From Eubacterium sp. CAG:38 (lineage in GTDB: Bacteria > Bacillota > Clostridia > Oscillospirales > Ruminococcaceae), in NCBI GenBank assembly GCA_963660925.1, contig CAVKZS010000001.1, positions 30,046 to 94,045 of the forward strand: 64,000 bases of DNA, in the 5' to 3' direction. The stretch's first letter is position 1. Each line of letters starts with the position of its first letter. The position numbers and the translations under genes were made by a program. Of the stretch, positions 1 through 16,266 are shown piece after piece. The notes under the pieces are model-generated. The model had not been told where the DNA came from and made no database searches. It was given only the letters and a program-made list of their open reading frames with translations.

Positions 1-390
1 GATTTTCTGCAGAACCGGGAGCCATTTTCTCTCGGGGCCAAAAGCATCTTTCGTGCTGCCGCGACCGATTGGTTCACCGGCTACATCACGGCCAAATCCG
101 CTACCGATATCTACTATCTGACACATCGCTGCACCCACAGCGATAAGGAGAGCCGCGAAAAGCTCAACCAGCTGCTCACCATTCTCGGCCTGCTCGATAC
201 GAGCAGCGACGCTATTTTCCACGCGATATCTTCCCCCGTATCGGATTTCGAGGATGCCGTCATGATCGAGACAGCCCGGCGTAGCCGGATGGACTGCATC
301 GTGACCCGCAACACCAAAGATTACGCCAAAGCGTCGCTTCCCGTCTACACGCCAGATGAATTTCTGGCCCGCTTGGAAGCATCTTCCTGA
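1..390 (+). CDS. PIN-domain protein (VapC-like), 5'-truncated by the window edge
   Basis: Frame +1 is open from base 1 to TGA at 388-390 (not in the ORF track). Translation contains DFEDAVMIETA and DCIVTRNTKDY, typical PIN-domain C-terminal motifs. Confidence 0.8.
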   Translation, partial: DFLQNREPFSLGAKSIFRAAATDWFTGYITAKSATDIYYLTHRCTHSDKESREKLNQLLTILGLLDTSSDAIFHAISSPVSDFEDAVMIETARRSRMDCIVTRNTKDYAKASLPVYTPDEFLARLEASS

Positions 391-441
391 GAAACAGCAA
401 ACGCAGAGTCAACCGAAAGGACTCTGCGTTTGCTGTTTCTC
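389..441. terminator. Bidirectional intrinsic terminator
   Basis: 22-bp perfect inverted repeat GAGAAACAGCAAACGCAGAGTC / GACTCTGCGTTTGCTGTTTCTC between convergent genes. Confidence 0.8.
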
Positions 442-1287
442 TTATTCTTTTTCAAATACCAAAAACCGGAAATCAATCGTCGTTGTCAGCTCCGGCAAAG
501 CGGCGAGGCGGGCAGCTCCGTCGCGGGGCGTTTTCCAGTAGTAGGGCGTCATAGCGAAGAGGGCCTCCAACTGCTGGGCCGGGACGGTGATCTCGCCCGA
601 GACTTCCCGCTCCCCGATGGCGCGGAATCCCTCATAGGCGATCTCCTGCACCGGGTTCTTGTAGGGCTTTTCGTAGAGGACTGCCTTCATCTGGTAGAGG
701 TGTTCCGCCCCCGGCACGACGTAGATCATCCGTCCGCCCGGGCGCAGCACCCGCAGGAACTCTTCCCGCGCAAAAGGCGAAAAGCAGTTGAGCAGCAGGT
801 CGGCCCACCCGGTCCGGATCGGCTGGGAAAAGCTGGACGCCACGGCGTATCCGGCCTGCGGCAACGCTTTTGCGGCCAGCCGGACGGCCGGTTTTGCGAT
901 GTCGAACCCGGCCAGCTCCAGCGGCTTTCCGGCCTCGGCGAACTGCCGGGCAATGCAGCGGTCGTACCAGCCCTCGCCGCAGCCTGCATCCAGCAGGCGG
1001 AGCGGTGCTTCCGGAGCTGTCGACTGACCATGCTCAAGGCAGAGTTCCCCCAAAGCCTCGCCGAAGATGCCGTAGTACCCGGCGTTCAGGAAGGCGCGGC
1101 GGGCTGCGACCATCTCTTTGCCGTCGCCGGGGGCCTTGGTGCGCATCTTCTGCACCGGCAGCAGATGCCAGTACCCCTCTTTGGCCCGGTCAAAGCTGTG
1201 TCCGGCGGTGCATTTCAGGGTCGTTTCGCCCGCCAGCGGTTTCCCGCACAGGGGGCACTGCCACGGCAGCTGTCTCGGTTTGTTCAT
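442..1287 (-). CDS. rlmA: 23S rRNA m1G745/748 methyltransferase RlmA family
   Basis: N-terminal Zn finger (CPLC...C...HSFD), SAM motif LDAGCGEGWY and the MTPYYW motif. Confidence 0.85.
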   Translation of the reverse strand: MNKPRQLPWQCPLCGKPLAGETTLKCTAGHSFDRAKEGYWHLLPVQKMRTKAPGDGKEMVAARRAFLNAGYYGIFGEALGELCLEHGQSTAPEAPLRLLDAGCGEGWYDRCIARQFAEAGKPLELAGFDIAKPAVRLAAKALPQAGYAVASSFSQPIRTGWADLLLNCFSPFAREEFLRVLRPGGRMIYVVPGAEHLYQMKAVLYEKPYKNPVQEIAYEGFRAIGEREVSGEITVPAQQLEALFAMTPYYWKTPRDGAARLAALPELTTTIDFRFLVFEKE

Positions 1288-3263
1288 CAGATCTCCTCGC
1301 TGTGATCCTCAATGGGAGCGGTCGCGCCGCCGTGGGCGGTCATATACTCCTCAAAATTGCTGAATTTCTGCTGCGGCGGGCGGCGGCTGATCAGCACCAG
1401 ACCCGGGTCTTCGTCCTTGGCGGCGGCACTGCGGCCGCGGCTGCGGGTGTTTGTCTGCTCCGGCTTGCGGGGAGCACGGCCTGCACCCAGCGGGGCAGTG
1501 TTGCTGTTCCGACGGCTCTGGGAATTGTTTGCATTGTTCTGTGCATTCTGCACCGGCTTCGGCTCGGCAGAACCCGCGCGGTTGCTGCGGTCATTGCGGC
1601 CGTTCCGGGCCGGGCGGTCGTTCTTGGGCTGGGCCGCACGGTTGTTGTTCCGGTCATTGCGGGCGTTGTTCGCACCGTTGTTCGGGTTGCTCTGTGCGTT
1701 CTGGGCCTGCTGCACGCTGCGGGCCGTCTTGATCTGGGGAGCAGGCTGGGGAGCCGGGGCTTTCTTGGCCGGGCGGAGCGGCGTTGCTTCGGGTGCGCTC
1801 ACAAAGTGCGGGTCGAACTTGGGCTGTGCATTGCTGCTGCGATTCTGCGCCGGGGCTGCGGTGTTGTTGTCGCGACGGGGGCGGTTATTGGAACGGCGGT
1901 TTTCATTGCGTCCGCCGGGAGTGCGCTTCTGGTTTTCATCCATGGGTTGTTCCTCTTTTGTTACGGATTTGGGCTGTTTTGCAGGCTTCTCGGCCTTTTT
2001 TGCCGGAGCCGCTGCGGGAGCCTTGGCCGCTTTGGGTTCTGCTTTGGGTGCCTCGGACTGCTGTGCCACAGCCTCGGCTTTGGGCTTGCGGCCCCGCACC
2101 GGGGGCTCTTTCTTGGCCGGGGCGGGCACACCGTCCCAAGGGTGGCCGGACACCACCGGGATCTTCCGGCGGTTCAGCTTTTCGATGCCGGCCAGATACT
2201 CCTGCTCCTCGGGGGCGCAGAAGCTGACGGCGGTGCCGTCAGCACCGGCGCGGGCCGTGCGGCCGATCCGGTGCACATAGGTCTCCGGCACCTCGGGCAG
2301 GTCGTAGTTGAACACATGGGACAGCTCGCTGATGTCGATGCCGCGGGCGGCGATGTCGGTAGCCACCAGCACCTTGGTCTTGCCGGCCTTGAAGCCCTCA
2401 AGGGCGGCGACGCGGGCACTCTGACTCTTGTTGCCGTGGATGGCCGCCGCCGGAATGCCCTGCTTGGTCAGGTCGCGGGCGATCTTGTCCGCGCCGTGCT
2501 TGGTGCGGCTGAACACCAGTGCGTTCTGCACCGGCGGGTTCAGGTTCTTGATGAGCCACGGGAGCAGGAGCTTTTTGTTGCCCTTCTCCACAAAATACAA
2601 ACTCTGGTCGATCCGGTCCACGGTGCTGGACACCGGGTCCACCTTGACGAAGGCCGGGTTGTGCAGGATGCCCGCGGCCAGCTGCTCGATCTCTTTCGGC
2701 ATGGTCGCGCTGAACATCAGGTTCTGCCGCTTGGCGGGCAGCTTTGCGATGACCCGTTTCACGTCGTGGACAAAGCCCATATCCAGCATCCGGTCGGCCT
2801 CGTCCAAGACAAAAATTTCAATGTCCGACAAGTCGATCAGGCCCTGCCCCACCAAGTCGTTCAGACGGCCCGGGCAGGCGATCAGGATGTCCACGCCCCG
2901 CTTGATGGCCTCGACCTGCGGGGCCTGCCCCACACCGCCGAAGATGACGGTGCTGCGGAGCTTGAGGTACTTGCCGTAGGCTTCAAAGCTTTCGCCGATC
3001 TGGAGCGCAAGCTCCCGGGTCGGGGTCAGGATCAGGGCGCGGACAGCCCCCTTCTTCCGGGCGGGCTGGGCGGTCAGCCGGTCCAGCATCGGCAGTGCGA
3101 ACGCCGCCGTCTTGCCGGTGCCCGTCTGGGCGCAGCCCATTAAATCCCGTCCTTCCAGCACCGGCGGAATGGCCGATGCCTGAATGGGCGAGGGCGTTTC
3201 GTAGCCCGCCTCCGCAACAGCACGCAGAATGGGGGCGGACAGATTCAATTCGTTAAAAGTCAT
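1287..3263 (-). CDS. DEAD-box RNA helicase (RhlE-like) with long disordered C-terminal tail
   Basis: Q motif [31 protein letters not shown] and HRIGRTAR motifs, followed by a low-complexity tail of about 280 aa. Confidence 0.95.
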
Positions 3264-3273
3264 GGTTCTCCTA

Positions 3274-4566
3274 TTATTCTTTGATCTTGCGGCACTCTAC
3301 ATAGTACCGCTTTTCCTCCGCGTGGCCCATACTGAAGGTCTTGCGCGGGAGCACGCCGCCCAGCACGACGCCCTTGAAGAGGTCGCGCTTTTCAAACGGC
3401 GGCAGCAGGAACGCCACACCGCCCTGTTTGGTCAGGGCGCGGACAGCCGGCTCGTCGTGGACATAATCCACCCGGGCTTCCTTATGATGCTCAAGGAAAT
3501 ATTCGATAAATTCGTCGATGGTGCCCACGGTCAGCGGGGCAACAGGGTCTTCAAAGCTCAGCACATTCGAGACGTGGGGGCCGGCCAGCGTGAAGGACTG
3601 CTGCTTGGTGTCGCCGAAGCAGATGCCCGCCATATTTGCGTCGCTCCAAGTGATGAGGGAGAGCAGCACCGCGCCGCAGTCCACGTTGAAGAGGACGCGG
3701 TGGATCGGCTCGATCTCGATGGCCGGGGAGTGGACGTTGCAGACCTCGGCAAGGCACCAGCGGGCCGGATGGGTCAGCTGCTCCTCCGGGGTCAGGGTCT
3801 TTTTCAGCTCTTCCCAGCAGGCTTTGGCCGAGGCCAGCGAGTGGTTGCCGTCGCCGACGGCCAGCGTCAAGGGCTGTGCGCCCTTGGCCTCTGGATATTT
3901 CGCGTCAAAGGCTTCCTGACTGCCGAGGGCATTCAGGGCATGGTCGATCTGCTCCAGCAGGGCCGGATCTTCGACGGCCCAGCCCGCAATGTGGCCGCCG
4001 CCCAGCATCAGCTCGCCCTCGTAGACCTTCCGCAGTTCGTTTTTCTTGGCCCCGATGGGCTCGATGAGGGTGCAGTCCGGGTCATCGGCCAGCATCATCA
4101 CATGGGGCGTTTCCAGCGTTGCGCCCCGCCGCACTGCCATCCGGGGCGGGATGCGGGATTCGACCGTGCTCTCACTGGGCCGGACGGCCGGGCGGGTGCC
4201 TCTGGCATAACTATATGCTTCCAGATCGATCTTCCCCACAAGGCCCTGCCGCACCCGGCCGCTCTGCTCGGTGCGCTCGACGTAAATGAAACCATCCACT
4301 GCGCGGGTCAGCACGTCGCGGGCGTAGGCGTCCATGGTGTCGTGGATCTTCTCCACCCGGGCGTTCACATCGCTGTCCTCAAGGTAGACCTCGGGCAGGA
4401 TGAGATGCAGCGTGCTGGGGCAGTCGGCGGCCGTCTGTGCCGCCTTTTCCCAATAGGCGCGGTCGCTGGTAAACTGATCGCAGGCCACGCATCCCCACTG
4501 CTCCAGCGGGATGTTTTCCGCAGGCAGAAGGATGTGAGCAGGTGAAAAGCAGGATGCGTGATTCAT
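3274..4566 (-). CDS. DUF1015 family protein
   Basis: [19 protein letters not shown] and LPRKTFSMG motifs typical of this family. Confidence 0.75.
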
Positions 4567-4601
4567 AACTGATTCCTCACTTTCAGGGTTCCGAAAAAGC
4601 C

Positions 4602-5729
4602 TTATTCAAAATAATTTGCCGCGTTATCCCGGATGACGATGTGCTCTACGCCCGAAGCCGCGAGGCTCTGCACCAGTTCGGCGCGGGATGCCTCATCCAG
4701 CGTGGACTTGGAGGGCACGGTCACCAGCAGATTCTTCATACCGAGCTGGGCCGCCGGTGCCCCCAGTGTGGAAGCGGTATCCGTCACCTGACCCAGTGCA
4801 TAGCCGTACCACAGGGTCACGCTGTCGCCGAAGCGGGCCTGCCATGCGGCGATGTCCGCCGTCAGCTGACCGGCGCGGTCCACGCCGTTGGTATTGCCGA
4901 AGTCCTGCTTGCCGTTCTGGGCCGAGGGGAACTGCACGTTCTCCAGCAGGATCTGATCGAAGCCCGCAGTGTGCAGCTCGTCGATGAGGTCGCCGATGTA
5001 CTGCACGGCCTCCTGCGAGTAGGGGTTCAGCCACGGGTTGCCGCCGGCCGAAGCCTTGTTGTCCAGCCAGAGGTAGGCCTGATTGGTGTAGCCGATGGCC
5101 ATGGTGCGGACGGCGCGGGCACCGGCCGGGTCACGGAAAGCCGCAAGCTTTGCCACCGGGACCAGCCCTTCTTCCTTGAAGATCGCCGCGATCCGGGCCG
5201 GGTCCACGGTTTGGGACGCTGCATTGGCCGCGCCTGCCGCGGTCTGGGACGGGAAGTAGACCGTACCGGCGGTGTCTTTCAGGGTCACCACCGCATAGGC
5301 TGCACCCTGTGCCGCCGCCTGCTGTGCTGCCGCGCGGATGGCGTCATCACTGGTCAGTGCGGTGACATCCACCTCGGTCCAGCTGCCCGCAACGATGGCG
5401 GTGCCCGGTGCGGGTTCCGGCTCTGCCACGGAGGAAGCCGCCGGCTCGCTGGAAGCGGCCTCCGAAGAAGCCGCGCTCGACGCTGCTTCGCTGGAAGCGG
5501 CACTGGACGCCGCGCTGGCAACACCCGACGCCGAGAGGTCGCGGTTGCGCACCACCGTGTACCAAGTGTGGGTCGCCCAGTCCAGCACATGGGGTGCGGC
5601 CACCCATGCAGCCGCCAGCACCGCGATCACGAGGACTGCGATGCCGATCCCTTTTTTGATCCGCGTTTCGCGGCTGTAAAAACTCCGCCGGTAGCGTTTC
5701 ACCTTGGTGCGTTTTTTGTAGTGTGCCAT
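4602..5729 (-). CDS. Membrane-anchored putative glycoside-hydrolase-like protein (DUF4015-like)
   Basis: Basic N-terminus, one TM helix, Ser/Ala linker, then VTLKDTAG, AAFRDP, WLNPY and GFDQILLENVQFP motifs. Confidence 0.7.
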   Translation of the reverse strand: MAHYKKRTKVKRYRRSFYSRETRIKKGIGIAVLVIAVLAAAWVAAPHVLDWATHTWYTVVRNRDLSASGVASAASSAASSEAASSAASSEAASSEPAASSVAEPEPAPGTAIVAGSWTEVDVTALTSDDAIRAAAQQAAAQGAAYAVVTLKDTAGTVYFPSQTAAGAANAASQTVDPARIAAIFKEEGLVPVAKLAAFRDPAGARAVRTMAIGYTNQAYLWLDNKASAGGNPWLNPYSQEAVQYIGDLIDELHTAGFDQILLENVQFPSAQNGKQDFGNTNGVDRAGQLTADIAAWQARFGDSVTLWYGYALGQVTDTASTLGAPAAQLGMKNLLVTVPSKSTLDEASRAELVQSLAASGVEHIVIRDNAANYFE

Positions 5730-5754
5730 AAGTGTTCCATCCTCCCTGTCCCGA

Positions 5755-6363
5755 TCACAGGATCACAGAATGTCCGGTAAAGCCATAGATCGCCAGTGCC
5801 AGCACGCCGATATACACCAGCGTAATAGGCAGGCCGCAGAATGCAGACGGGATTGCCCGGCTGCGCAGACGGTTCTTGGCCTCGGTGACCAGCATGACCG
5901 CCAGCAGATAGCCCAGCCCGCTGCCGAGGCCGAAGCCCAGCGACTGGCCCAGCGTAAAGCTCTGGGTGCGCTCCACCAGCACCGTACCCAGCACGCAGCT
6001 GTTCAGCGCGGCCAGCGGCAGGATGCGGATGAGCAGGCCGCTGCGGGGCCCCTTGACCAGCCGCAGCACCAGATACTCGAACAGGCAGACCAGCGCGATG
6101 CAGGCCAGATAGACCAGCGGGCGCAGCTGGGCGCGGTTTTCCAGCGGAGCGATCAGGCCGCCCGCATAGAACGCCAGCGGTGCCACCAACACCTGCGTGA
6201 TGCAGAGCATCAGGGCGAACCACCAGCTGCTGGTGCGGTCATCGCCCACCAGCTGCACCAGACGGGAGACGCCCAGACCGCGGGTAAAGATCGCGTTCTG
6301 CGCAAAGACCGCCAGCACTGCATAGCTAAAGAAGATGCCGACGGCATTCAGAACTTCTCTCAT
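5755..6363 (-). CDS. RnfA/NqrE-like membrane protein (divergent)
   Basis: Hydrophobic, 202 aa; LPLAALNSCVLG, GLGSGLGYLLA and IPSAFCGLPITL...LALAIYGF align with the RnfA pattern. Confidence 0.8.
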   Translation of the reverse strand: MREVLNAVGIFFSYAVLAVFAQNAIFTRGLGVSRLVQLVGDDRTSSWWFALMLCITQVLVAPLAFYAGGLIAPLENRAQLRPLVYLACIALVCLFEYLVLRLVKGPRSGLLIRILPLAALNSCVLGTVLVERTQSFTLGQSLGFGLGSGLGYLLAVMLVTEAKNRLRSRAIPSAFCGLPITLVYIGVLALAIYGFTGHSVIL

Positions 6364-7079
6364 TGCTTGCGCTCTCCTTCCTTCTGCAGGGCGATCAGGT
6401 TGACCGCCTCGGTCTTCAGATCCTTCTTCCGCCAGTTGGCGACGGCGCGCCAGACGGCGCAGAGCACGCCCAGCACGATGAAGCCGCCGGCCGGCATGGA
6501 CGCCATCGGCAGGGCCGGGCGGGTGCTCAATACCACGCCGAAGATGCTGCCCTGTGCCAGAAACTCCCGCACGCAGCCCACCAGCAGCAGGATCAGCGCG
6601 TAGCCCACGGTGATCCGCAGGCCCTTGGAGATGGCTTTCCGGGGCCGCTCCTGAACCCGGCCAAAGCGGTAGATCAGCAGCGGCTCCACGGTCAGCAGGG
6701 GCAGATAGACGCCCAAGCTCAGCAGATCCACTCCGAACAGGCTGTTCAGCAGCGGATACATCACAAAGTAGACCGCCGCCGCACTGCCGCAGTAGATCAG
6801 GCCGCGGGGCAGCAGCTTCTTTTCCAGCTCTTCCGCCGAGGGCTGCTCGTCCCGCAGGGGGACGGCGCGGCTCAGCAGGCAGGCCAGCAGGCGGGACGGG
6901 GTCAGCAGCAGCAAGACCGCCACCGCCAGCATCCCGGCGTTTTTGCCGCTGGTGGCCAGCACCACCAGCGGGGCCAGACCCATGCCCTGCATGACAACGG
7001 GATTGTTCAGGAACACGCGGTCGTGGTGGGCGTACTTGTCCGGGTTGCGGACGATCTGTTCAGCAACGTTGCGTTTCAT
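6360..7079 (-). CDS. RnfE/NqrD-like membrane protein (divergent)
   Basis: NNPVVMQGMGLAPL, VREFLAQGSIFG and PAGGFIVLG motifs. ATG at 7079 overlaps the upstream stop (ATGA) and has a GGAGG SD. Confidence 0.8.
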   Translation of the reverse strand: MKRNVAEQIVRNPDKYAHHDRVFLNNPVVMQGMGLAPLVVLATSGKNAGMLAVAVLLLLTPSRLLACLLSRAVPLRDEQPSAEELEKKLLPRGLIYCGSAAAVYFVMYPLLNSLFGVDLLSLGVYLPLLTVEPLLIYRFGRVQERPRKAISKGLRITVGYALILLLVGCVREFLAQGSIFGVVLSTRPALPMASMPAGGFIVLGVLCAVWRAVANWRKKDLKTEAVNLIALQKEGERKQ

Positions 7080-8095
7080 TCCGCAGCCTCCTTTCCGTCC
7101 TCCGGGGTCTTGTGGAGCAGCTGGTACAGCCGCAGCTCGGTGCGGTCGAGCCAGCCGGAAATGCTGTTGACCACCAGCAGCGCAAAGCACACGCCGGTGT
7201 CGTACACGCCGAAGTACCGGAAGCCCATGGTCATAACGCCCAGCAGGACGCCGTAGAGGATGCGTCCGATCCGGTGGTGGGCGCAGGTGTACGGCTCATT
7301 GAAGAGGAACACCGCGCTGAACAGCATCGCACCGGTCAGCAGCTCGTCCCGCACGCCGCCCAGACGGGCCGCGAAGGTGGTGAAGATGGAACTGCCCATC
7401 AGTCCGGCTTCCCGGGGGAAGAGGAACGCAATGAGCGCACTGGTGACAAGGAAGCTGATGGCCGTGCTCAGGCGGATGTCCTTCTGGCTCCAGAGGAAGA
7501 AGCCGCAGGCCACGATGATGAGGGCCGCGCCGGTGCCCATGGGGGCCGCATACTCGCCCAGACCAAGGCTCAGCGCGCTCATGTTCAGCAGACCGCCGCT
7601 GCGCAGGGTGTCTGCGATGGAGCTGGACAGCGGCACGCCCGACGCATCCCAGAGCGGGATGTTCGCATAGGGCTGGGGATACCGGAACACCTGCTCCGGC
7701 CATGAAACTGCCGCAACGGTATAGCCCACGGCGGCAGGGTTGAAGGGGTAGCTGCCATATCCGCCGAACACCTCTTTACCGATCAGCACGCCCACCAGCA
7801 CCGCCGCGATCAGGACATACCAATCCACGGTGGCCGGCAGCAGCAGCGCGATGACCAGCGCGAAGCTCTCGTTGGAAAAGTCGGATGCCTGATACACGCG
7901 CCGGCGCAGCAGGCTGACCAGACGGTCGCACAGGTTGCCGGTGAGCAGTGCCGCCGCGCAGAGCAGCAGCGGCCGTGCCCCATACAGATAGCAGGACATA
8001 CAGAGCAGCGGGATGGCCATAAAGCAGATGTGCTTGTAGTAGCGGCCGGTCCGGTTCAGCTCCTTCTCCTGCAGTTCAATGATCGTTTTTTCCAT
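7076..8095 (-). CDS. RnfD/NqrB-like membrane protein (divergent)
   Basis: GKEVFGGYGSYPFNPAAVG and GVCFALLVVN motifs. Start placed at ATG 8095, just after the rpe stop. Confidence 0.8.
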   Translation of the reverse strand: MEKTIIELQEKELNRTGRYYKHICFMAIPLLCMSCYLYGARPLLLCAAALLTGNLCDRLVSLLRRRVYQASDFSNESFALVIALLLPATVDWYVLIAAVLVGVLIGKEVFGGYGSYPFNPAAVGYTVAAVSWPEQVFRYPQPYANIPLWDASGVPLSSSIADTLRSGGLLNMSALSLGLGEYAAPMGTGAALIIVACGFFLWSQKDIRLSTAISFLVTSALIAFLFPREAGLMGSSIFTTFAARLGGVRDELLTGAMLFSAVFLFNEPYTCAHHRIGRILYGVLLGVMTMGFRYFGVYDTGVCFALLVVNSISGWLDRTELRLYQLLHKTPEDGKEAAE

Positions 8096-8108
8096 GGCAG
8101 TACCCCGC

Positions 8109-8759
8109 TTACAGAGCTGCCAGACGGCGCACCATCTCCGCCGGTTCCGCCGCGCCAAAGACCGCGTTGCCTGCCACCAGAACGTCTGCACCCGCCTCGA
8201 CGCAGAGGGGCGCGGTGTTCGCATCCACGCCGCCGTCCACTTCCAGCAGGTAGTGCAGGCCCCGCTTTTCCCGCTCGGCTTTGAGCCAGCGGAGCTTGTC
8301 GATGGCCGAGGGCATGAACTTCTGGCCGCCGAAGCCCGGCTCCACGCTCATGACCAGCACCAGATCCAGCTGATCCAGATAGGGTACCAGTGCCTCGGGC
8401 GGGGTGTTGGGCTTGATGGTCAGGCCGGTCTTGCAGCCCAGAGCCTTGACTTTATCCAGCGTCTGCTGGATGTCGTCTTCACATTCGAGGTGGAAGTTGC
8501 AGAGGGTCGCGCCCGCCTTGATGAAGGGTTCCGCATATTCCAGCGGGTGGGAGATCATCAGGTGGACGTCGTAAAACGCCTCGGGCAGGCCCTTGTGCAG
8601 GCTCTTGAGCACCGGCACGCCAAAGCTGATGTTCGGCACAAAGTGGCCGTCCATCACGTCATAATGCAGCATCTTGGCACCGGCGTCCAGCACCATCCGG
8701 CAGTCGTCGCCCAGATGGGTAAAGTCGGCGGAAAGAATGGAAGGACTCACAATCGTCAT
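8109..8759 (-). CDS. rpe: Ribulose-phosphate 3-epimerase
   Basis: SPSILSADF, HYDVMDGHFVPN, DVHLM, MSVEPGFGGQ and EVDGG motifs. GGAGAG SD before ATG 8759. Confidence 0.95.
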   Translation of the reverse strand: MTIVSPSILSADFTHLGDDCRMVLDAGAKMLHYDVMDGHFVPNISFGVPVLKSLHKGLPEAFYDVHLMISHPLEYAEPFIKAGATLCNFHLECEDDIQQTLDKVKALGCKTGLTIKPNTPPEALVPYLDQLDLVLVMSVEPGFGGQKFMPSAIDKLRWLKAEREKRGLHYLLEVDGGVDANTAPLCVEAGADVLVAGNAVFGAAEPAEMVRRLAAL

Positions 8760-8976
8760 TGTACTATACTCTCCGTAATTTTCAGAAAGATTTTCGCTCA
8801 TTGTCCAGTTTTTCTTCTCTTTCCGGGGCCGTTTCACCGACCCGGAGAGAGATGGACATAGCTATTTTTTAGTTTACATGAAAACGCGCAAAAAATCAAA
8901 CCCGCAGCGGTGTTTTTCACGAAAAACACAGAAAACCAGACCACCGGCCCTTGCGGGCGGCAGTCTGGCTGTGTGT

Positions 8977-10500
8977 TCAGTTGACGGGTTTCATGCTTGC
9001 GGGGTCCTCCACGGCACCGGGACGGCCGCTCTCGTCGGGCAGACGCTTCATCCCGCCGGGATTGGGGGCCTGTGCAGGCAGAGTGAACACGAACTTGCAC
9101 CACTCTCCCTGCTGGCTCTCCACCCGGATCTGCCCGCCGGCCAGATTGACCAGCACCTTGCAGATGTTCAGGCCGAGGCCCGCGCCCCGGGCGTGCAGCC
9201 CGCGGGAGCGGTCTTCCTTGTAGAACCGCTCAAAGACATAGGGCAGTGCTTCCGGGCTGATGCCCTGTCCGGAGTTCCAGATGGAGATCTCCACATCTGG
9301 GCCAAGCTTTTCGACGCCGAAGCGGATGGTGCCGCCGGCGGGGGTGAACTTGATGGCGTTGTCCAGCAGGTTGTAGGCCACCTGATGGATCAGGTCGGGG
9401 TCGGCGTAGACCAGAACCTTTTCGTCCATGGTCAGGCCCTCGATCTCGATCATACCGTCGTTGATCCGCTGCTCGGCCGACAGTGCCACGCCGGTCAGGG
9501 TCTCCCAGATGTTGAACATCCGGGCGTTGACCTGATACTCGCCGCTTTCCAGCTTGGACAGATCCAGCATATTCTGGATCAGCCGCGCCAGACGGCCCGT
9601 TTCCTCCGAGACCAGCTGCAGGTAATGATTCTGCATCTCGGGCGGGATAGTGCCGTCCAGAATGCCGTCAATGAAGCCCTTGATGGTGGTCATCGGAGTG
9701 CGCAGCTCGTGGGCGATGTTCCCCATGAACTGGCCCCGGGAGTTGTCGTTCATCTGGATGTTCTCGGCCATGGTGTTGAAGGTGCGGGCCAGATCTGCCA
9801 CCTCGCCTTCGCCTTCCACGCCCTCGACCCGCACCGACAGATCGCCGCCGCCGAACCGCTGGGCCGCGTCGGTGATCTTCTGGAGCGGATCGGTTAGCCG
9901 GCCCATCAGCCGCTTGGTGAACAGGCTCGCCACCAGCAGCATCAGGCAGGCCGACAGGAAGAAATTCGAGAAGAATTGATACCGGAACTCGGTCAGCCGC
10001 TTGCCGGACGAGCAGAGGAAGAGATAGCCGCTGCGGTTTCCGGCCACTCGCATATTCTCGATGGGGTGGATGGAAACATAGGTCTTTTCATCCAGTACCC
10101 CGTCCAATGTGCCGAACGTATGATAGTTTTCTGCCGCCGTGTCTGCCTTTTCCAGCAGGGCAGCAGGCACTACGTCTTCCTGAATGTTCTCTTCGTCCGA
10201 GGCCAGCAGGATGTTGCCGTCGGTGTCGGTGAAGAAGAGATACGCCTCCGCACTCTCGCCGATGATCTCCAGCTTGGTGCTCAGGGCGTCCAGCTCCTCG
10301 CCCTCGGGCAGAGCGGCCTCTTCGACAAAGTAGGACGCCGCCCGCTGGGTGACGCTGACCACTTCATCCAGCGCATCGTACCGCTCCCGGGCGAAATACT
10401 GGTTGAACAGCACCCACTCCGACGCGCCCATCACCACGATGCCCAGCAGCATCAGGGTGGACACCATCGAGAAGAAGGTGACCGAGATACTTTTGCGCAT
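8977..10500 (-). CDS. Sensor histidine kinase (2 TM, HAMP, HisKA, HATPase)
   Basis: AHELRTPMT H-box, NLLDNAIKF N-box, GAGLGL G2 box. Confidence 0.95.
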   Translation of the reverse strand: MRKSISVTFFSMVSTLMLLGIVVMGASEWVLFNQYFARERYDALDEVVSVTQRAASYFVEEAALPEGEELDALSTKLEIIGESAEAYLFFTDTDGNILLASDEENIQEDVVPAALLEKADTAAENYHTFGTLDGVLDEKTYVSIHPIENMRVAGNRSGYLFLCSSGKRLTEFRYQFFSNFFLSACLMLLVASLFTKRLMGRLTDPLQKITDAAQRFGGGDLSVRVEGVEGEGEVADLARTFNTMAENIQMNDNSRGQFMGNIAHELRTPMTTIKGFIDGILDGTIPPEMQNHYLQLVSEETGRLARLIQNMLDLSKLESGEYQVNARMFNIWETLTGVALSAEQRINDGMIEIEGLTMDEKVLVYADPDLIHQVAYNLLDNAIKFTPAGGTIRFGVEKLGPDVEISIWNSGQGISPEALPYVFERFYKEDRSRGLHARGAGLGLNICKVLVNLAGGQIRVESQQGEWCKFVFTLPAQAPNPGGMKRLPDESGRPGAVEDPASMKPVN

Positions 10501-11195
10501 TACTGACGCACCTCGAATTTATAGCCCACGCCCCAGACGGTCTTCAGCTCCCACTTGTCGGAAGCACCGGCCAGCTTCTCGCGCAGACGCTTCACATGGA
10601 CGTCGATGGTGCGGGAGTCGCCGTAATACTCGAAGCCCCACACCTCGTCCAGCAGCTGGTCGCGGGTGTAGACCCGGTTGGGGTGAGACGCCAGACAGTT
10701 GAGCAGTTCCAGCTCCTTCGGGGGAGCCTCCACCACCTTGCCCTTGACCCGCAGCTCGTAGCTGTTCATGTCGAGGCGCAGGTTGTCGAACTCAATGACG
10801 CCCTCGGTGCTCTCGGTCTTGGTGGAGGTGGTGCAGCGGCGGAGCACCGCCTTGATGCGGGCCACCACCTCTTTGGAGTCGAAGGGCTTGACCATGTAAT
10901 CGTCTGCACCCAGCTCGAGACCCAGAACCTTATCGAAGGTCTCGCCTTTGGCCGTCAGCATCATCACAGGGGTGTTGCCCAGCTTGCGGATGCGGCGGCA
11001 GACTTCAAGGCCGTCCATCTTGGGCATCATCACGTCCAGCAGCACCATGTCGGGCTTGACCTGATTGAACTTTTCAAGGCCCTCTTCGCCATCGTTGGCC
11101 ACCGTGACCTGATAGCCTTCCTTGGTCAGATAAAGCCGCAGCAGTTCGCAGATATTGGTATCGTCGTCCACGACGAGGATCTTTTCGTTTGCCAT
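10500..11195 (-). CDS. OmpR/PhoB-family response regulator
   Basis: VVDDD, LLDVMMP, GADDY and KPF receiver motifs; winged helix RTIDVHVKRLR...TVWGVGY. Confidence 0.95.
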   Translation of the reverse strand: MANEKILVVDDDTNICELLRLYLTKEGYQVTVANDGEEGLEKFNQVKPDMVLLDVMMPKMDGLEVCRRIRKLGNTPVMMLTAKGETFDKVLGLELGADDYMVKPFDSKEVVARIKAVLRRCTTSTKTESTEGVIEFDNLRLDMNSYELRVKGKVVEAPPKELELLNCLASHPNRVYTRDQLLDEVWGFEYYGDSRTIDVHVKRLREKLAGASDKWELKTVWGVGYKFEVRQ

Positions 11196-11357
11196 AAGTG
11201 TTCTTCCTCCTGTGTATCCTGTATGCCCTGCCGATCGGCAAAGCTTCCAATTCTAACCTTATTCTCTATTATACGGGACAGTTATGACAAAATAAAGAAG
11301 GTTTTGTATGATTTTTTCACATTTGGGGGAGCAACTGCCGCCGAGATCCCGTGCCGC

Positions 11358-12176
11358 TCACCGCATTAGATACGCATACCGCCGCATTTGTTCCCGAAGA
11401 AGCTGTTCCACACGGGAGATCACTTGCTCCGGATAGTATTCCTGCAGCGGTCGAAGTTCCTCGGCCACTTCTTTGGCTCCAAAACGGAAATGCAGCGGGA
11501 TCCCGTACAACTCTTCCGCAGCATCCACCTGCTGCTCAAAGCTTGCGTGGAATGGTTTTGCTTTCACGCACTTTCTGCAATCGTCCAGCGATCGATCCAG
11601 CGAAAAATCACAGCTCGTATCTGCCAGCAATGAAAGTCCCTGATCGAAGAATGGGCTTAATTCATAACGGTCTTGTTCTGTATCGTATAGGACCGCTATG
11701 TTATTGGTGTGGCGATCTTCGTTCAGGAAAAACGCATCCAGTTCCAACATCGCGGTCAGATACGTCCCAAATCCGGTCAGACCTGTGTACTGTTCAACTT
11801 GCTCTACGGTGTATCGGATCCGATCCGGCACTTCCCCAAACTCGACCAGCCGCAGAGCCAGACTTCTGCCGGTGTGCTGCCGATACAGTTTTTCCAGCGG
11901 GATCAGCTTTTGGTTTTCCTTCAGAAAATTCTTGCTGCGGCAGCCGGTCAGCTTTTGTCCTCTGTATAAAATCTCCACTGGATCGTACTCCACAAACGGA
12001 TAATTCAGCTCTGCTCTGCACAGCAGCTGGGATACCAGAACCTCTGCCAGTCCTTCATACCCCATGTGGTCTGCCTTATACCACCATTCTCCCAGCTTCC
12101 ATTTCAGCTGGTTTCCCTTCGAGGTGTGCCCTTCGGTCTCCTGCAGCCGGATTTCGCTCAAATCTATGCGTTCCAT
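11358..12176 (-). CDS. HipA/CtkA-like serine/threonine kinase
   Basis: SKGNQLK loop, catalytic LNEDRHTNN, Mg-binding LSPFFDQG. Lacks a HipA N-terminal subdomain. Confidence 0.8.
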   Translation of the reverse strand: MERIDLSEIRLQETEGHTSKGNQLKWKLGEWWYKADHMGYEGLAEVLVSQLLCRAELNYPFVEYDPVEILYRGQKLTGCRSKNFLKENQKLIPLEKLYRQHTGRSLALRLVEFGEVPDRIRYTVEQVEQYTGLTGFGTYLTAMLELDAFFLNEDRHTNNIAVLYDTEQDRYELSPFFDQGLSLLADTSCDFSLDRSLDDCRKCVKAKPFHASFEQQVDAAEELYGIPLHFRFGAKEVAEELRPLQEYYPEQVISRVEQLLREQMRRYAYLMR

Positions 12177-12186
12177 AATTCACCCC

Positions 12187-12792
12187 TCATGAAGCCTTTT
12201 TGTGGATCACGTCGATCCATTGCTGATCCTCGGCCATCCGGCCCTTGGTTTTCTCAATGATCAGAAGCGGATCGTAAAACGGCACCCCCACATCGCTCAG
12301 GACCCATTTCAGGTGCGCCCGCGTCTCCGGAAAACACCGGTCTTTCAGGAACCACTCAAAATCTTCCCACGTCGGGTTTTCTACTGTACCGAATGCCCGA
12401 AGTGGAATTTTGTCCGTGTAATTTTTGATGCTGATCTTCTCGTGTTTAAAATCCACATCAATGGTGGTACACAGCTCATTCTGATTCATATAGTTGAGCC
12501 GCAATGCCACATCCGGGTCGTCGCTGCACTTTTCCATCCGATCCAGCTGCTTGTAGATCGTCTGGCGGCTGACCCTGTACCGTTTCGCAAGCTCTGTCGC
12601 TCCCATTCCCTGCCGATGCAGTGCCAGCATTTCTGCCGCCTGCTGCGGCGTCAGGCTGCTTTTGCGTCCGGCCCCGCGCTCGTTGCGGGGAATCTTCTTT
12701 TCACACCGGGCTTTCTGTGCAATTGTGCGCAGCTCGTCGGGGTCAACTGTCCCAAAAATATCAAAAACCTGCGTCTTGAAGTCCTCTTTCAT
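12187..12792 (-). CDS. HTH protein with C-terminal HipS/HipA-N-like domain; putative antitoxin
   Basis: Resolvase-type HTH (AGRKSSL...ELAKRYRVSRQTIYK) plus FLKDRCFPETR...YDPLLII...GRMAEDQQWI. GGGAGG SD before ATG 12792. Confidence 0.65.
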   Translation of the reverse strand: MKEDFKTQVFDIFGTVDPDELRTIAQKARCEKKIPRNERGAGRKSSLTPQQAAEMLALHRQGMGATELAKRYRVSRQTIYKQLDRMEKCSDDPDVALRLNYMNQNELCTTIDVDFKHEKISIKNYTDKIPLRAFGTVENPTWEDFEWFLKDRCFPETRAHLKWVLSDVGVPFYDPLLIIEKTKGRMAEDQQWIDVIHKKAS

Positions 12793-12814
12793 CGCTGTGC
12801 CTCCCTTCACTTTT

Positions 12815-12843
12815 ATTATAGTTTCGCTTCACCCGTATGTCAA
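12815..12843 (-). promoter_or_regulatory. Sigma70/SigA promoter for the HTH-kinase pair
   Basis: Perfect TTGACA-17 bp-TATAAT on the minus strand. Confidence 0.85.
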
Positions 12844-12899
12844 TCTTTTAATTTTCTTACGTTTCATTTTTTGTTCAGCATTTAAACTTTCGCTTTCTC

Positions 12900-12928
12900 T
12901 TGCACTCCCGCCCGCCTTTGCGTATAAT
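12900..12928 (+). promoter_or_regulatory. SigA promoter of ychF
   Basis: TTGCAC-17 bp-TATAAT. Confidence 0.75.
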
Positions 12929-12976
12929 GATAGATGTATTATTATGTTCACCAAACGTGTAAGGAGCGTATTCTAT

Positions 12977-14110
12977 ATGAAATTAGGTATCGTCGGCCTG
13001 CCGAACGTCGGCAAGTCCACTCTGTTCAACGCCATCACCTCCACCAAGAACGCGGAGGCGGCCAACTATCCCTTCTGCACCATTGAGCCGAACTCCGGCA
13101 TCGTGGCTGTGCCCGACAAGCGGCTGGACAAGCTGGCCGAGATCTGGCAGACCAGCAAAAAGACGCCCGCCATCGTCGAGTTCGTGGACATCGCCGGTCT
13201 GGTCAAGGGTGCCAGTCAGGGTGCGGGCCTTGGCAACAAGTTCCTCGGCCACATCCGCGAGTGCGATGCCATCGTGCACGTCGTCCGCTGCTTCGACGAT
13301 GACAACATCATCCACGTCGTCGAGGACGTGACCAAGGCCGAGGCCGTGGATCCCATCGCCGACATCGACGCCATCGACTATGAGCTGATCCTCTCCGACC
13401 TCGAAGTGGTCCAGAACCGCGCAGGCCGGATGGCCAAAGCCGCCAAGAGCGGCAACAACAAGGGTGCTGCTGCCGAGGCCGAGTGGCTGCAGAAGCTTGC
13501 CGACCACCTGAGTGCCGGCAAGCCCGCCCGCAGCTTTGAGTTCGACGAGAACGACACCGAGCAGCAGAACGTTCTGCGTGAGATGGGCCTGCTCAGCGCA
13601 AAGCCTGTTCTGTACGCCTGCAACGTGGGCGAGGACGACCTGATGGACGGCATCGAGAACAACAAATACGTCCCGCTGGTGGCCGCCCGCGCCAAAGAAG
13701 AGGGTGCCCGCTACATTCCCATCTGCGCCAAGACCGAAGAGGACATCGCCGACTACTCGCCCGAAGAGAAGAAAGCTTTCCTCGCCGAGATGGGCATCGA
13801 GGCCAGCGGTCTGGACAACCTGATCACCGCCAGCTACGATCTGCTGGGCCTGATCTCCTTCCTGACCGACGGCAAGAAAGAGTGCCGCGCATGGACCATC
13901 CGTAAGGGCACCAAGGCTCCGCAGGCTGCCGGCAAGATCCACAGCGACTTCGAGCGCGGCTTCATCCGCGCCAGCGTCATCAGCTACGGCGACCTCGAGG
14001 CCAACAACTTCGATTACGCGGCGGTCAAGGCCAAGGGCCTGCAGCGCACCGAGGGTAAGGAGTACGTCGTGCAGGACGGCGATGTGATCGAGTTTCTGTT
14101 TAATGTATGA
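12977..14110 (+). CDS. ychF: Ribosome-binding ATPase YchF
   Basis: [48 protein letters not shown] motifs; AAGGAG SD. Confidence 0.97.
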
Positions 14111-14117
14111 TTAAAAT

Positions 14118-14273
14118 AAACCTCTCAGTCTGCTTCGCAGACAGCTCTCCTAGTAGGAGAGCCCTTGGCAAAGAGGGATTGTTTTCGGATTCCATCGAAA
14201 ACGCTGCGGATTGCCAAGGCCTCCCCTATCAGGGGAGGTGGCATCGAGCGAAGCGAAGATGACGGAGAGGTTT
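14118..14273. repeat. REP-like palindromic element, inverted dimer
   Basis: Two inverted units of AACCTCTC(A/C)GTC-hairpin-CA(G/C)CTC(T/C)CC-N-GG(A/G)GAG-CCTTGGCA; the same family recurs four more times in the window. Confidence 0.8.
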
Positions 14274-14289
14274 TTAGAAGGAGTTTTAA

Positions 14290-14973
14290 ATGATTATCGG
14301 AATTATGGGCGCGATGCCCGATGAAGTCGATCAGCTCTGCGCCAAGCTCACGGATGTTACCGTGGAACCTTACGGCGGTGTGGAGTACCACAAGGGCACG
14401 CTGGCCGGCAAGCAGGTGGTTGTCTGCTGCGCCGGCATGGGCAAGGCCAACGCCGCCGCCACCACGCAGGTGCTCATCACGAAGTACGGTGCCGAGAAGA
14501 TCATCTTCTCCGGCATCGCCGGCAACATGACCTCCAAGATCGGCATCGGCGATGTGGTCATCGGCAAGACCGTCCTCTACCACGACGCCCAGCTGGACAT
14601 GATCTGCCAGAACCCGCCCTTCCTGAAGGAGTACACCGGCGACCCGGCCCTGATCGCCGCCGCCGAAGCCGCCTGCGCCAAGGTGGGCGTGAAGTCTCTG
14701 ACCGGCAAGATTGCCACCGGCGACCTGTTCGTGGGCGACAGCGAGACGAAAGCCGCCATCGAGAAGAAGTGCGCCCCCGACTGCGTGGAGATGGAGGGTG
14801 CTGCGGTCAGCCAGATCGCGGCCAAGAACGGGGTGCCCTGCGTCATCCTGCGCGCTATGAGCGACAACGCCGACGAGGACGGCCACGAGGTGCTGGTGGT
14901 CAAGAAGTTCAGCATCGCCGAGTATGTAGCCACCGCCACCAAGATCGTGGCGGCGATGGTGGAGAGCTTATAA
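14290..14973 (+). CDS. mtnN: 5'-methylthioadenosine/S-adenosylhomocysteine nucleosidase
   Basis: IGIMGAMPDEV, GMGKANAA, VEMEGAA, RAMSDNA motifs. Confidence 0.92.
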   Translation: MIIGIMGAMPDEVDQLCAKLTDVTVEPYGGVEYHKGTLAGKQVVVCCAGMGKANAAATTQVLITKYGAEKIIFSGIAGNMTSKIGIGDVVIGKTVLYHDAQLDMICQNPPFLKEYTGDPALIAAAEAACAKVGVKSLTGKIATGDLFVGDSETKAAIEKKCAPDCVEMEGAAVSQIAAKNGVPCVILRAMSDNADEDGHEVLVVKKFSIAEYVATATKIVAAMVESL

Positions 14974-15408
14974 AAACTGCTCCAGCTTGATCCGGTTGTC
15001 TTCCTCAAAATCTTGCAGTTTCTGCATCAGCCGCTTGGAGCCGGGGGCTGCGTCCGGGTAGTCTTTCTGGCTCTTCACACAGTCCATCACGCCCTGACTG
15101 CTGCCCTCGGACAGCATTTCGGCCAGATTCCGGGTGGATTTGTCGGTCATGGTCTTCATAGCGACGCCCATCTTGGTGTTGAACTTGGCCATCGCGCTCT
15201 GTCCCTGCGCGGTGCCGCCGCAGGCGGCAATGGCCGTGTGCGCCTCCTGATTGAGCTGGCGGTAGATGTTCTGCTGGCGGAGCAGTTCGGCCTTGAACCG
15301 GGCGTCGTCGGTCATGGGGACGATCTGCTCGAGGGTGTTCTTCCCCATTTCGGTGTTCTGCACCACGGCTTCCAGCAGGTTGAGGTTGTCGTTTTTCTGA
15401 TTTTCCAT
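14968..15408 (-). CDS. Conserved hypothetical protein (helical, possibly ferritin-like bundle)
   Basis: 146-aa ORF with host-like codon usage and a GGGGGA SD. Confidence 0.7.
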   Translation of the reverse strand: MENQKNDNLNLLEAVVQNTEMGKNTLEQIVPMTDDARFKAELLRQQNIYRQLNQEAHTAIAACGGTAQGQSAMAKFNTKMGVAMKTMTDKSTRNLAEMLSEGSSQGVMDCVKSQKDYPDAAPGSKRLMQKLQDFEEDNRIKLEQFL

Positions 15409-15410
15409 AC

Positions 15411-15454
15411 AAAAAATCCCCCTTTTGGCGTTATCCTGTCCAAAAGGGGGATTT
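15411..15454 (-). terminator. Intrinsic terminator-like hairpin overlapping the SD of the next gene
   Basis: 15-bp perfect stem AAATCCCCCTTTTGG / CCAAAAGGGGGATTT with a T run on the minus strand. Confidence 0.7.
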
Positions 15455-15468
15455 CTTATACCTGTTGG

Positions 15469-16266
15469 TTATTTATAGCTGTAAATGGAATCGCCGCCGG
15501 CAGCTTCGATCTCACGCAGGCGGTCTTCGGCCAGCTGATAGAGTGCCTCCCAGTTGCGGCAGTGCACCTCATGGGTAGAGGCCACGGCGATGGACTGGGT
15601 GAAGGGCACCCGGCGCATCAGGCCCACCGAAGCGATGCACTCCCGCGGCATCTCCTTGCAGATCTCCCGCAGCTCTGCCGCCAGCTCCTCGCCGGTCTTG
15701 TCGGCACAGGCGATCAGGAACAGCGCGTCGCTCATCCGGCAGACCACCCGTTCCGCCGGGCGGTCGTAATGCTTCTTCCACTGGTTTGCCACAAAGCAGA
15801 CCAGCTGATCCATCACGGCCTCGCCCTGTTTGCGGCACATCTCCACGGCGTGGTCGATCTCAACCAGCGCGATGGACGCGCAGCGGTGAGCGTCCGCCCA
15901 CTCGTCCAGCTTGGTGCACAGTTCGGTCTCGGCATAGCGGCGGTTGAATACCCCCGACAGAAAGTCGTGGTTCATGTCCTCACGGCACATCTCCCGCTCC
16001 CGGGCGGTCATCCGGTCCTCCGGCAGGGTGTTGCCTGCCAGCGGCGCGGTCATGGTCAGCTCCCAGAGCTTGTCATCGGCCCAGATCTGGCGGCGCAGCA
16101 CACAGTCCACCTGACCGTTGCGCAGTACATAATCCACCATCAGGCCGTCGTCCTGCCAGTTGCGAGCCATCTCTTCGTCGGCTTCGGTCAGGGTCACTTC
16201 CTCAAATGCGGGCTTGGCCCCCTCCGCGAACCGGCGCAGATCCTGCTCCGTCCATTCATTTTTCAT
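15469..16266 (-). CDS. Degenerate GGDEF-domain protein
   Basis: HDFLSGVFNRR and ALVEIDH motifs are present, but RMSDALF replaces R-x-GGDEF. Confidence 0.75.
   Translation of the reverse strand: MKNEWTEQDLRRFAEGAKPAFEEVTLTEADEEMARNWQDDGLMVDYVLRNGQVDCVLRRQIWADDKLWELTMTAPLAGNTLPEDRMTAREREMCREDMNHDFLSGVFNRRYAETELCTKLDEWADAHRCASIALVEIDHAVEMCRKQGEAVMDQLVCFVANQWKKHYDRPAERVVCRMSDALFLIACADKTGEELAAELREICKEMPRECIASVGLMRRVPFTQSIAVASTHEVHCRNWEALYQLAEDRLREIEAAGGDSIYSYK

What the first reader, a model, noticed from the sequence alone, without database searches (positions are those of the whole stretch)
5755..8095. Cofactor-less RnfD/E/A-like membrane trio without rnfC/G/B: a possibly repurposed complex
Seen: three translationally coupled genes (4-bp overlaps) homologous to RnfD, RnfE and RnfA, inside the run rpe > D > E > A > DUF4015 > DUF1015 > DEAD helicase > rlmA, with no rnfC, rnfG or rnfB nearby. 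Established: RnfD carries covalent FMN on a [S/T]GAT motif, and RnfA/RnfE hold an intramembrane Fe-S centre through the cysteines of LGxCP and NC motifs. Seen: the D-like protein has VPLSSSIA where [S/T]GATPL is expected. The E-like protein has GLAP and TVEP, so both cysteines are lost. The A-like protein has GLGVS and LNSC, so one is lost and one is shifted. The ORFs remain intact with normal codon usage. Inference: a non-redox paralogous complex that reuses the Rnf membrane scaffold, for example for ion flux, transport or signalling.
Basis: partly seen in the sequence, partly recalled or inferred. Interest (0 to 1): 0.82.

Follow-up and report, generated by a model that had tools for sequence, protein, structure and literature searches.

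The report
Cofactor-stripped Rnf membrane trio, gut Clostridia
Faecalibacterium and most of its relatives carry a second, conserved copy of the three membrane subunits of the Rnf respiratory ion pump; it has lost the iron-sulfur and attached-flavin sites the pump needs, yet is kept even in tiny genomes where no working pump was found, so it probably does a different, undescribed job.

Summary
Confirmed, with corrections. The genes are intact RnfD/E/A paralogues (D', E', A'); a complete rnfCDGEAB lies elsewhere in the genome. In 85 degenerate loci, three of the four Fe-S cysteines are absent in all, the flavinylation motif is absent in all, and the FMN pocket is filled with bulkier residues. 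Corrections: the second RnfA cysteine is replaced by Ser, not shifted, and the riboflavin ligands are largely kept (Asn119, Glu267), so 'cofactor-less' is unproven. A' is single-copy in 182 of 250 family genomes; dN/dS is 0.26-0.30. The clade nests inside a second intact rnf lineage, with intermediates; its ancestral operon added an RnfC lacking the NAD/FMN loop and a DUF4015 pseudo-glycosidase, each dispensable. Five genomes hold only the degenerate E'/A' pair and no ApbE; four 0.7-0.9 Mb genomes keep all three genes scattered. Best guess (0.4): a redox-uncoupled cation carrier using the E'/A' core. Function is untested.

The parts
7076..8095 (-). D', RnfD paralogue, 339 aa; flavinylation motif lost, FMN pocket filled, riboflavin-site Asn119/Glu267 kept
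   Evidence: model pLDDT 94.5, TM 0.75-0.78 to solved RnfD chains
6360..7079 (-). E', RnfE paralogue, 239 aa; both cluster Cys lost (Ala36, Pro133); Glu132 replaces the Asn beside the vacated site
5755..6363 (-). A', RnfA paralogue, 202 aa; both cluster Cys replaced by Ser (Ser33, Ser122); Asn121 kept
4602..5729 (-). DUF4015 protein, 375 aa: basic N-terminal tail, one long helix (residues 20-60), low-complexity linker, glycosidase-like TIM barrel lacking the family's conserved motifs; frequent but non-obligate companion
8109..8759 (-). rpe, ribulose-phosphate 3-epimerase; positional anchor of the locus and probable first gene of the transcript
   Evidence: within the fetched flank in 69 of 72 degenerate loci
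8758..8807 (-). two weak sigma-70-like matches upstream of rpe (9 of 12 bases each)
   Evidence: consensus match only, 5 found in the region against 2.3 expected
8932..8951 (-). terminator-like hairpin after the histidine kinase gene, separating it from rpe
   Evidence: consensus match only, 12 found against 9.0 expected

Best explanation
SHOWN BY SEQUENCE: D', E' and A' descend from a second rnf operon of Oscillospirales that lost rnfB, rnfG, the membrane [2Fe-2S] site and the covalent FMN site, so they cannot run ferredoxin:NAD+ electron transfer. They are kept together under purifying selection, also where no intact Rnf or ApbE was found. INFERRED: they assemble as a D'E'A' membrane complex with a housekeeping role. 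MOST LIKELY MECHANISM (inferred, untested): the inverted E'/A' dimer keeps the alternating-access core that carries Na+ in Rnf, with small polar or acidic side chains where the cluster sat, and works as a redox-uncoupled monovalent-cation carrier or gated leak for ion, pH or membrane-potential balance. D' is sealed on the outer side and acts as scaffold or regulator through its retained cytoplasm-side riboflavin pocket.
For: Cys in register at E'1, E'2, A'1: 0 of 85 loci each; at A'2: 41 of 85; no locus has more than one of four. Flavinylation motif 0 of 85 against 13 of 19 in rnfG-type operons. FMN cavity filled: Arg to Tyr/Phe/Ile, Glu to Thr/Ala, Asn to Leu/Met, Ala to Leu, Leu to Phe. The central site stays polar: A' first-Cys position Ser in 62 of 85; A' Asn/Asp 83 of 85; E' Asn/Asp/Glu 76 of 85; the gate Arg 66 of 85 and its partner Glu 52 of 85. 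These match the Na+-site and ion-pair residues N112(A), N107, R67 and E115(E) of A. woodii Rnf (PMC11889175, passages). In four reduced genomes the site reads Lys/Arg plus Asp, as if a side chain replaces a bound cation. Independence from redox partners: 5 of 5 selected genomes have only the low-scoring PF02508 pair and 0 of 5 have ApbE; four 0.7-0.9 Mb genomes keep D', E' and A' at separate loci with no RnfC-like or DUF4015-like gene found. dN/dS 0.26-0.30.
Against: No transport data exist. Several Na+-path residues are lost: A' equivalents of Q85, E88 and Y105 are mostly hydrophobic, T110 is Thr in only 24 of 85, and the window's own E115 equivalent is Gly140. Polar residues at helix breaks can be kept for folding alone. 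Without the cluster no driving force or gate is known, and an ungated leak would be costly. D' is the best-conserved subunit in the reduced genomes while E' and A' diverge most, which fits a D'-centred function as well.
Confidence: 0.4

Rival explanations
1. Half-wire or redox sensor: D' still binds riboflavin, and RnfC' (or free ferredoxin/flavodoxin where RnfC' is lost) feeds electrons to it. The flavin's redox state is then read out, or passed to a membrane or free flavin acceptor; E'/A' are scaffold or effector.
For: Riboflavin ligands: Asn 56 + His 20 of 85; Asp 55 + Glu 21 of 85; the surrounding K-x-x-F-G-G and T-x-P residues are also kept and are near-canonical in the reduced genomes. 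RnfC' keeps two CxxCxxCxxxCP motifs in 12 of 15 loci. Precedent: the Nqr/Rnf-like D subunit lacks the flavinylated Thr yet is proposed to carry electrons (PMC10979944, passages).
Against: RnfC' lies beside the trio in only 15 of 72 loci and was not found in this 88%-complete genome or in the four smallest genomes. Its NAD/FMN glycine loop is gone in 15 of 15. The outer FMN cavity is filled, so no exit for electrons is evident. In the window the Asp is Glu and a neighbouring Asn is Tyr.
Confidence: 0.25
2. Envelope sensor or scaffold: the DUF4015 pseudo-glycosidase binds a cell-wall or dietary glycan outside and signals through D'E'A', in the place once held by RnfG.
For: DUF4015 follows A' in 49 of 72 loci and 56 of 57 close loci. 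It is a single-helix-anchored TIM barrel that has lost the Q-x-D-Y-x-R motif invariant in 37 of 37 free homologues. It already follows intact or nearly intact rnf operons (L129, L137, L157). mecA and a two-component pair lie next to the locus.
Against: The partnership is not obligate: a whole clade (L082-L092, L094) and the reduced genomes keep the trio without it beside them, and genus g6 keeps rpe-mecA-DUF4015 with no trio at the locus.
Confidence: 0.15
3. Riboflavin (or other small solute) importer built on the D' pocket.
For: Riboflavin pocket kept. RibH occurs in 7 of 182 A'-positive against 18 of 68 A'-negative genomes; by genus 7 of 106 against 7 of 29. RnfD has the urea/ammonium transporter fold.
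Against: This genome already has an ECF S-component gene directly behind an FMN riboswitch, and 17 of 24 trio-bearing genomes searched have an FMN riboswitch. No FMN riboswitch was found at 12 loci scanned (11 trio-bearing, one intact operon) or in window 1-16000. The D' constriction is bulkier, not more open. Kin are not independent, so the RibH contrast is overstated.
Confidence: 0.1
4. Accessory or spare subunits of the genome's intact Rnf, or slowly decaying duplicates.
For: dN/dS is higher than for rpe (0.13) or the response regulator (0.06), and branches are long.
Against: Frames are intact in the loci examined; single copy in 182 of 250 genomes; kept where no intact Rnf or ApbE was found; derived from a different rnf lineage than the genome's working operon.
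Confidence: 0.04

Closest known systems
Rnf complex RnfCDGEAB (C. tetanomorphum 7ZC6, A. woodii 9ERI, A. vinelandii 8AHX)
   Same: Homologous D, E, A subunits in the same order; D' fold TM 0.75-0.78; riboflavin ligands and part of the RnfA/E Na+ site kept.
   Different: No rnfG at any of 72 loci and no rnfB in the operon; at most one of four cluster Cys; no flavinylation motif; RnfC absent or without its NAD/FMN loop; occurs without ApbE.
Na+-NQR (NqrABCDEF)
   Same: Also proposed to have arisen from a duplicated rnf operon that lost rnfB, with a cofactor-free RnfC homologue, NqrA (PMC4014512 and PMC12174285, passages).
   Different: NQR keeps both covalent FMNs, the [2Fe-2S] cluster and NqrC, and gained NqrF; this clade lost the core cofactor sites and gained no redox subunit.
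Nqr/Rnf-like two-subunit systems (PMC8238504, PMC10979944)
   Same: RnfD-like subunit without the flavinylated Thr.
   Different: Those fuse an NAD-binding domain to D, pair with a flavinylated RnfG-like subunit and lack A/E (passages). Here A and E are kept, and G and the NAD domain are absent.
DUF4015 / Cthe_0052 (4S1A), Cwp19-like glycosidases
   Same: The fourth gene has this TIM-barrel fold (Foldseek E 1e-11 to 4S1A; profile E 2e-30).
   Different: The motifs invariant in free DUF4015 proteins are degenerate in the 52 operon copies, and the C-terminal half of the barrel is unconserved.

Membership tests
Rnf complex | Six subunits C, D, G, E, A, B in one cluster | tested here: not met
   rnfG 0 of 72 loci; one ferredoxin-like hit on the opposite strand; RnfC' 15 of 72; none of C, G, B beside the window's trio
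Rnf complex | Four Cys of RnfA/RnfE binding the membrane [2Fe-2S] cluster | tested here: not met
   window 0 of 4 in register; family 44 loci with none, 41 with one
Rnf complex | [S/T]GA[S/T]-like motif for covalent FMN on RnfD | tested here: not met
   0 of 85 against 13 of 19; Ser or Thr remains at the column in 53 of 85
Rnf complex | Riboflavin ligands Asn and Asp in RnfD | tested here: inconclusive
   window Asn119 and Glu267; family N/H 76 of 85, D/E 76 of 85; binding itself not testable
Rnf complex | RnfD fold | tested here: met
   pLDDT 94.5; TM 0.75-0.78 to 8AHX, 9ERI, 7ZC6 chain D
Rnf complex | Score above curated rnfD/rnfE/rnfA cut-offs | tested here: not met
   136/207, 47/213, 64/229 bits
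Rnf complex | Na+ site and ion pair in RnfA/E | tested here: inconclusive
   N112, N107, R67, E115 equivalents mostly kept or acidic; Q85, E88, Y105, T110 equivalents mostly lost
Rnf complex | Ferredoxin:NAD+ activity coupled to ion pumping | not testable with these tools
   needs purified protein
Na+-NQR | NqrA, NqrC, NqrF partners and Nqr-level scores | tested here: not met
   nqrB 56/350, nqrD 32/245, nqrE 56/248 bits; no such partner among the conserved neighbours scanned
Nqr/Rnf-like system | RnfD domain fused to an NAD-binding domain, with a flavinylated RnfG-like partner | tested here: not met
   D' is 339 aa with PF03116 only; no FMN_bind gene at the locus
Active DUF4015 glycosidase (fourth gene) | Q-x-D-Y-x-R motif invariant in free homologues | tested here: not met
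   37 of 37 free copies have it; among 52 operon copies Asp 16, and Tyr and Arg not among the four commonest residues; the window reads L-L-E-N-V-Q. That these residues are catalytic is my inference.

The most novel reading that the evidence does not exclude
A respiratory pump's membrane core was converted into a housekeeping, redox-independent cation transporter: the Fe-S cluster that gates Na+ movement in RnfA/E was replaced by Ser/Asn/Asp/Glu side chains, and the resulting D'E'A' complex is important enough to survive in 0.7 Mb genomes. It would be a new transporter family and a natural test of whether RnfA/E, not RnfD, is the ion path in Rnf and NQR.
Probability: 0.33. Interest if true: 0.9.

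Novelty: new variant of a known kind. Interest (0 to 1): 0.74.

Why it matters
Ruminococcaceae-type bacteria, Faecalibacterium among them, are major gut anaerobes. Pipelines label these genes as Rnf subunits, so 'Rnf present' or 'two copies' misstates their energy metabolism; species descriptions list RnfA, D and E as '2 copies' without comment (10.1101/2020.12.09.414284, passages). The literature disagrees on whether Na+ crosses through RnfD/NqrB or RnfA/E (PMC12174285, PMC9588780, PMC11889175). A natural cluster-free D/E/A trio, with a graded series of intermediates, lets ion binding be tested apart from electron transfer. Retention in very small genomes points to an unrecognised basic function.

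Tried and rejected
RNA evidence: one weak metatranscriptome run was offered; its contigs cover parts of the locus, one across the D'/E' junction, but contigs cannot show transcription. My first guess that the gene between rpe and RnfC' was thiN was wrong: it is mecA on the other strand. Riboflavin-importer idea tested and lowered. An obligate DUF4015 subunit was rejected. An opened urea/ammonium-type pore in D' was rejected: constriction residues are as bulky or bulkier. The protein search, the 50%-cluster search and the ESM Atlas returned only Rnf-type labels or unnamed relatives. A bootstrap tree timed out and was replaced by a 24-taxon SH-aLRT tree. A simple hydropathy count was too crude to use. 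Nine paper searches found no description of this clade; the library lacks most subscription papers, and no supplements were read. The one DUF4015 paper (PMC12700454, one passage) and PMC5861303 (passages) were not informative.

Full report
OBSERVATION. The three frames are intact and overlap by four bases at each junction. They hit PF03116 and PF02508 but score well under the curated rnfD, rnfE and rnfA cut-offs. The genome (G000, 88% complete) holds two PF03116 and four PF02508 matches; the others belong to a complete rnfCDGEAB on contig C81 with all motifs, and ApbE is on C91. A six-frame scan with profiles built here found no second rnfC and no mecA in G000. The closest named loci are mostly Faecalibacterium; all three genes stand in the same order in 55 of 57, the other two ending at contig edges.

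COFACTOR SITES. Numbering comes from C. tetanomorphum (PMC9588780, passages and section 9 part 1) and A. woodii (PMC11889175, passages), carried over through the pairwise alignments and the genome's own intact subunits. Among 85 degenerate loci, Cys stands in register at 0, 0, 0 and 41 loci for E'1, E'2, A'1 and A'2, against 20, 20, 19 and 20 of 20 in rnfG-type operons; no degenerate locus has more than one. In the window all four are replaced. The flavinylation motif (PMC8238504, passages) is present in 0 of 85 against 13 of 19. Ser or Thr remains at that column in 53 of 85, so I do not claim the hydroxyl is gone. The FMN cavity is remodelled: Arg130 to Tyr/Phe/Ile, Glu185 to Thr/Ala, Asn90 to Leu/Met, Ala35 to Leu, Leu240 to Phe, Gly237 mostly larger. 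In contrast the riboflavin ligands are kept: Asn or His in 76 of 85, Asp or Glu in 76 of 85; the window has Asn119 and Glu267. The D' model is confident (pLDDT 94.5) and matches solved RnfD at TM 0.75-0.78.

SELECTION. Nei-Gojobori dN/dS over 57-58 close sequences, using pairs with dS 0.1-1.0 (1480 of 1596, 1526 of 1653 and 1531 of 1596 pairs), has medians 0.257, 0.297 and 0.282 for D', E', A'; against the four nearest loci it is 0.09-0.20. Neighbours give 0.06-0.20 and the DUF4015 gene 0.37. Selection is purifying, though looser than on rpe.

RANGE. An A' profile (55 rows) matched 182 of 250 family genomes at E <= 1e-43, always once. I set that threshold above the best intact RnfA score I verified (142 bits). 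It undercounts: the four smallest genomes score 50-94 bits. Only a subset of hits was checked at the locus. Of 20 loci fetched from other families of the order, 7 were degenerate (four families) and 13 were intact-type. Outside the order I tested only the DUF4015 profile on 300 class genomes: none of the 29 best foreign loci had D', E' or A' within about 1.5 kb, and one followed rnfB. That is weak evidence for the range limit.

ORIGIN. In D+E+A trees all 83 degenerate loci with three usable genes form one clade (support 1.0; truncated L099 and L114 left out). It nests inside a second lineage of rnfG-type operons, separate from the lineage of the genome's working Rnf (SH-aLRT 100 and 95). The series reads: L129 C-D-G-E-A-B plus DUF4015 with all motifs; L137 C-D-G-E-A plus DUF4015, no rnfB, one Cys and the FMN motif lost; L144 rpe, mecA, C-D-E-A, DUF4015; then the rest. 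Branches are long and no outside root was used, so the order of losses is an inference. Among 72 degenerate loci, some cut by contig ends, rpe is near in 69, DUF4015 in 49, mecA (opposite strand) in 33, RnfC' in 15 and rnfG in 0. RnfC' keeps two 4Fe-4S motifs in 12 of 15 and has lost the glycine-rich NAD/FMN loop in 15 of 15, usually to an acidic D-E-x-D-G. The DUF4015 protein is a helix-anchored TIM barrel closest to 4S1A whose conserved family motifs are degenerate.

INDEPENDENCE. I picked five genomes because they gave a single E-type match. All five (90-94% complete, four genera) have only the low-scoring PF02508 pair and no ApbE. Of five further picks, one had both operons, one only the intact one, two only degenerate hits and one none. 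Four genomes of 0.7-0.9 Mb (92-97% complete, two genera) each keep one D', one E' and one A' at separate loci, with no RnfC-like or DUF4015-like match; ApbE was not tested in these four. They fall inside the degenerate clade. Co-retention after the operon broke up argues that the three work together and need neither accessory gene. The trio is not universal: it was not found in several small and large genomes (g6, g109, g17), so it is not essential everywhere. Absence calls rest on incomplete assemblies.

MECHANISM. In A. woodii Rnf, Na+ crosses through the RnfA/E dimer by alternating access, bound beside the cluster; the C. tetanomorphum and NQR models favour RnfD/NqrB. Here D' is more sealed than RnfD, while the E'/A' centre stays polar: Ser at the first A' Cys (62 of 85), Asn/Asp next to the second (83 of 85), and Asn, Asp or Glu on E' (40, 19, 17 of 85), which could replace the cluster's negative charge. 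The four smallest genomes show Lys/Arg plus Asp there; replacement of a cation site by a Lys is recalled from other transporter families and was not tested. Against this, four other Na+-path residues of RnfA are mostly lost and the window's gate Glu is Gly. I put a redox-uncoupled cation carrier at 0.4, a riboflavin-based half-wire or sensor at 0.25, a glycan-sensing scaffold at 0.15 and a riboflavin importer at 0.1. The RibH contrast (7 of 182 against 18 of 68) is unexplained and may be phylogenetic; an FMN-riboswitch-led ECF gene already exists in this genome.

KNOWN OR NEW. It fails the Rnf membership tests for subunit set, cluster ligands and flavinylation, and is neither NQR nor the Nqr/Rnf-like system. 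Nine paper searches found no description; one species description lists the extra copies as ordinary Rnf subunits. NQR is a precedent for a duplicated rnf operon gaining a new role (PMC4014512, passages). Earlier notes of this scan report cofactor-stripped Rnf remnants in other lineages; I did not check them, and a sequence look-up with E' found no look-alike there. If right, they make stripping of Rnf a recurrent event, which lowers uniqueness and raises generality. Verdict: a real, conserved, apparently undescribed variant whose function is open.

Noticed in passing
L129, L137, L131, L132, L144 (other Oscillospirales families): A second rnf lineage with graded loss of cofactor motifs (intact, loss of the RnfC loop, loss of the FMN motif, loss of one Cys and rnfB), sometimes followed by the DUF4015 gene.
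   Followed up: partly
L105:7581-8651, L187:9095-10402 and others: RnfC' keeps its 4Fe-4S motifs and replaces the glycine-rich NAD/FMN loop with a conserved acidic motif; kept in two 1.0 Mb genomes where no ApbE was found.
   Followed up: partly
L199:2090-3526, L200:2060-3523, L202:1905-3341: In the 0.7-0.9 Mb genomes A' is followed directly by a lipoprotein-like gene of about 480 aa with no Pfam family above cut-off.
   Followed up: partly
L208-L210 (genus g6): rpe-mecA-DUF4015 with the C'D'E'A' block cleanly missing; the pseudo-glycosidase is kept on its own in 1.1-1.3 Mb genomes.
   Followed up: partly
family-wide: Riboflavin synthesis (RibH) is rare in this family (25 of 250) and enriched where A' was not found.
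   Followed up: partly
window 11358-12810 (-): A gene pair (207 aa with an HTH domain; 272 aa with no Pfam hit) between the two-component genes and the YchF-like gene; it resembles HipA-type kinase modules (recalled, not tested) and looks lower in GC.
   Followed up: no
window 15469-16266 (-): GGDEF-domain protein in which the GGDEF signature is not visible in the translation; probably inactive.
   Followed up: no
G000 C82, C50, C61, C14: Four further FMN_bind-domain genes outside the rnf operon, possible extracytosolic flavoproteins.
   Followed up: no
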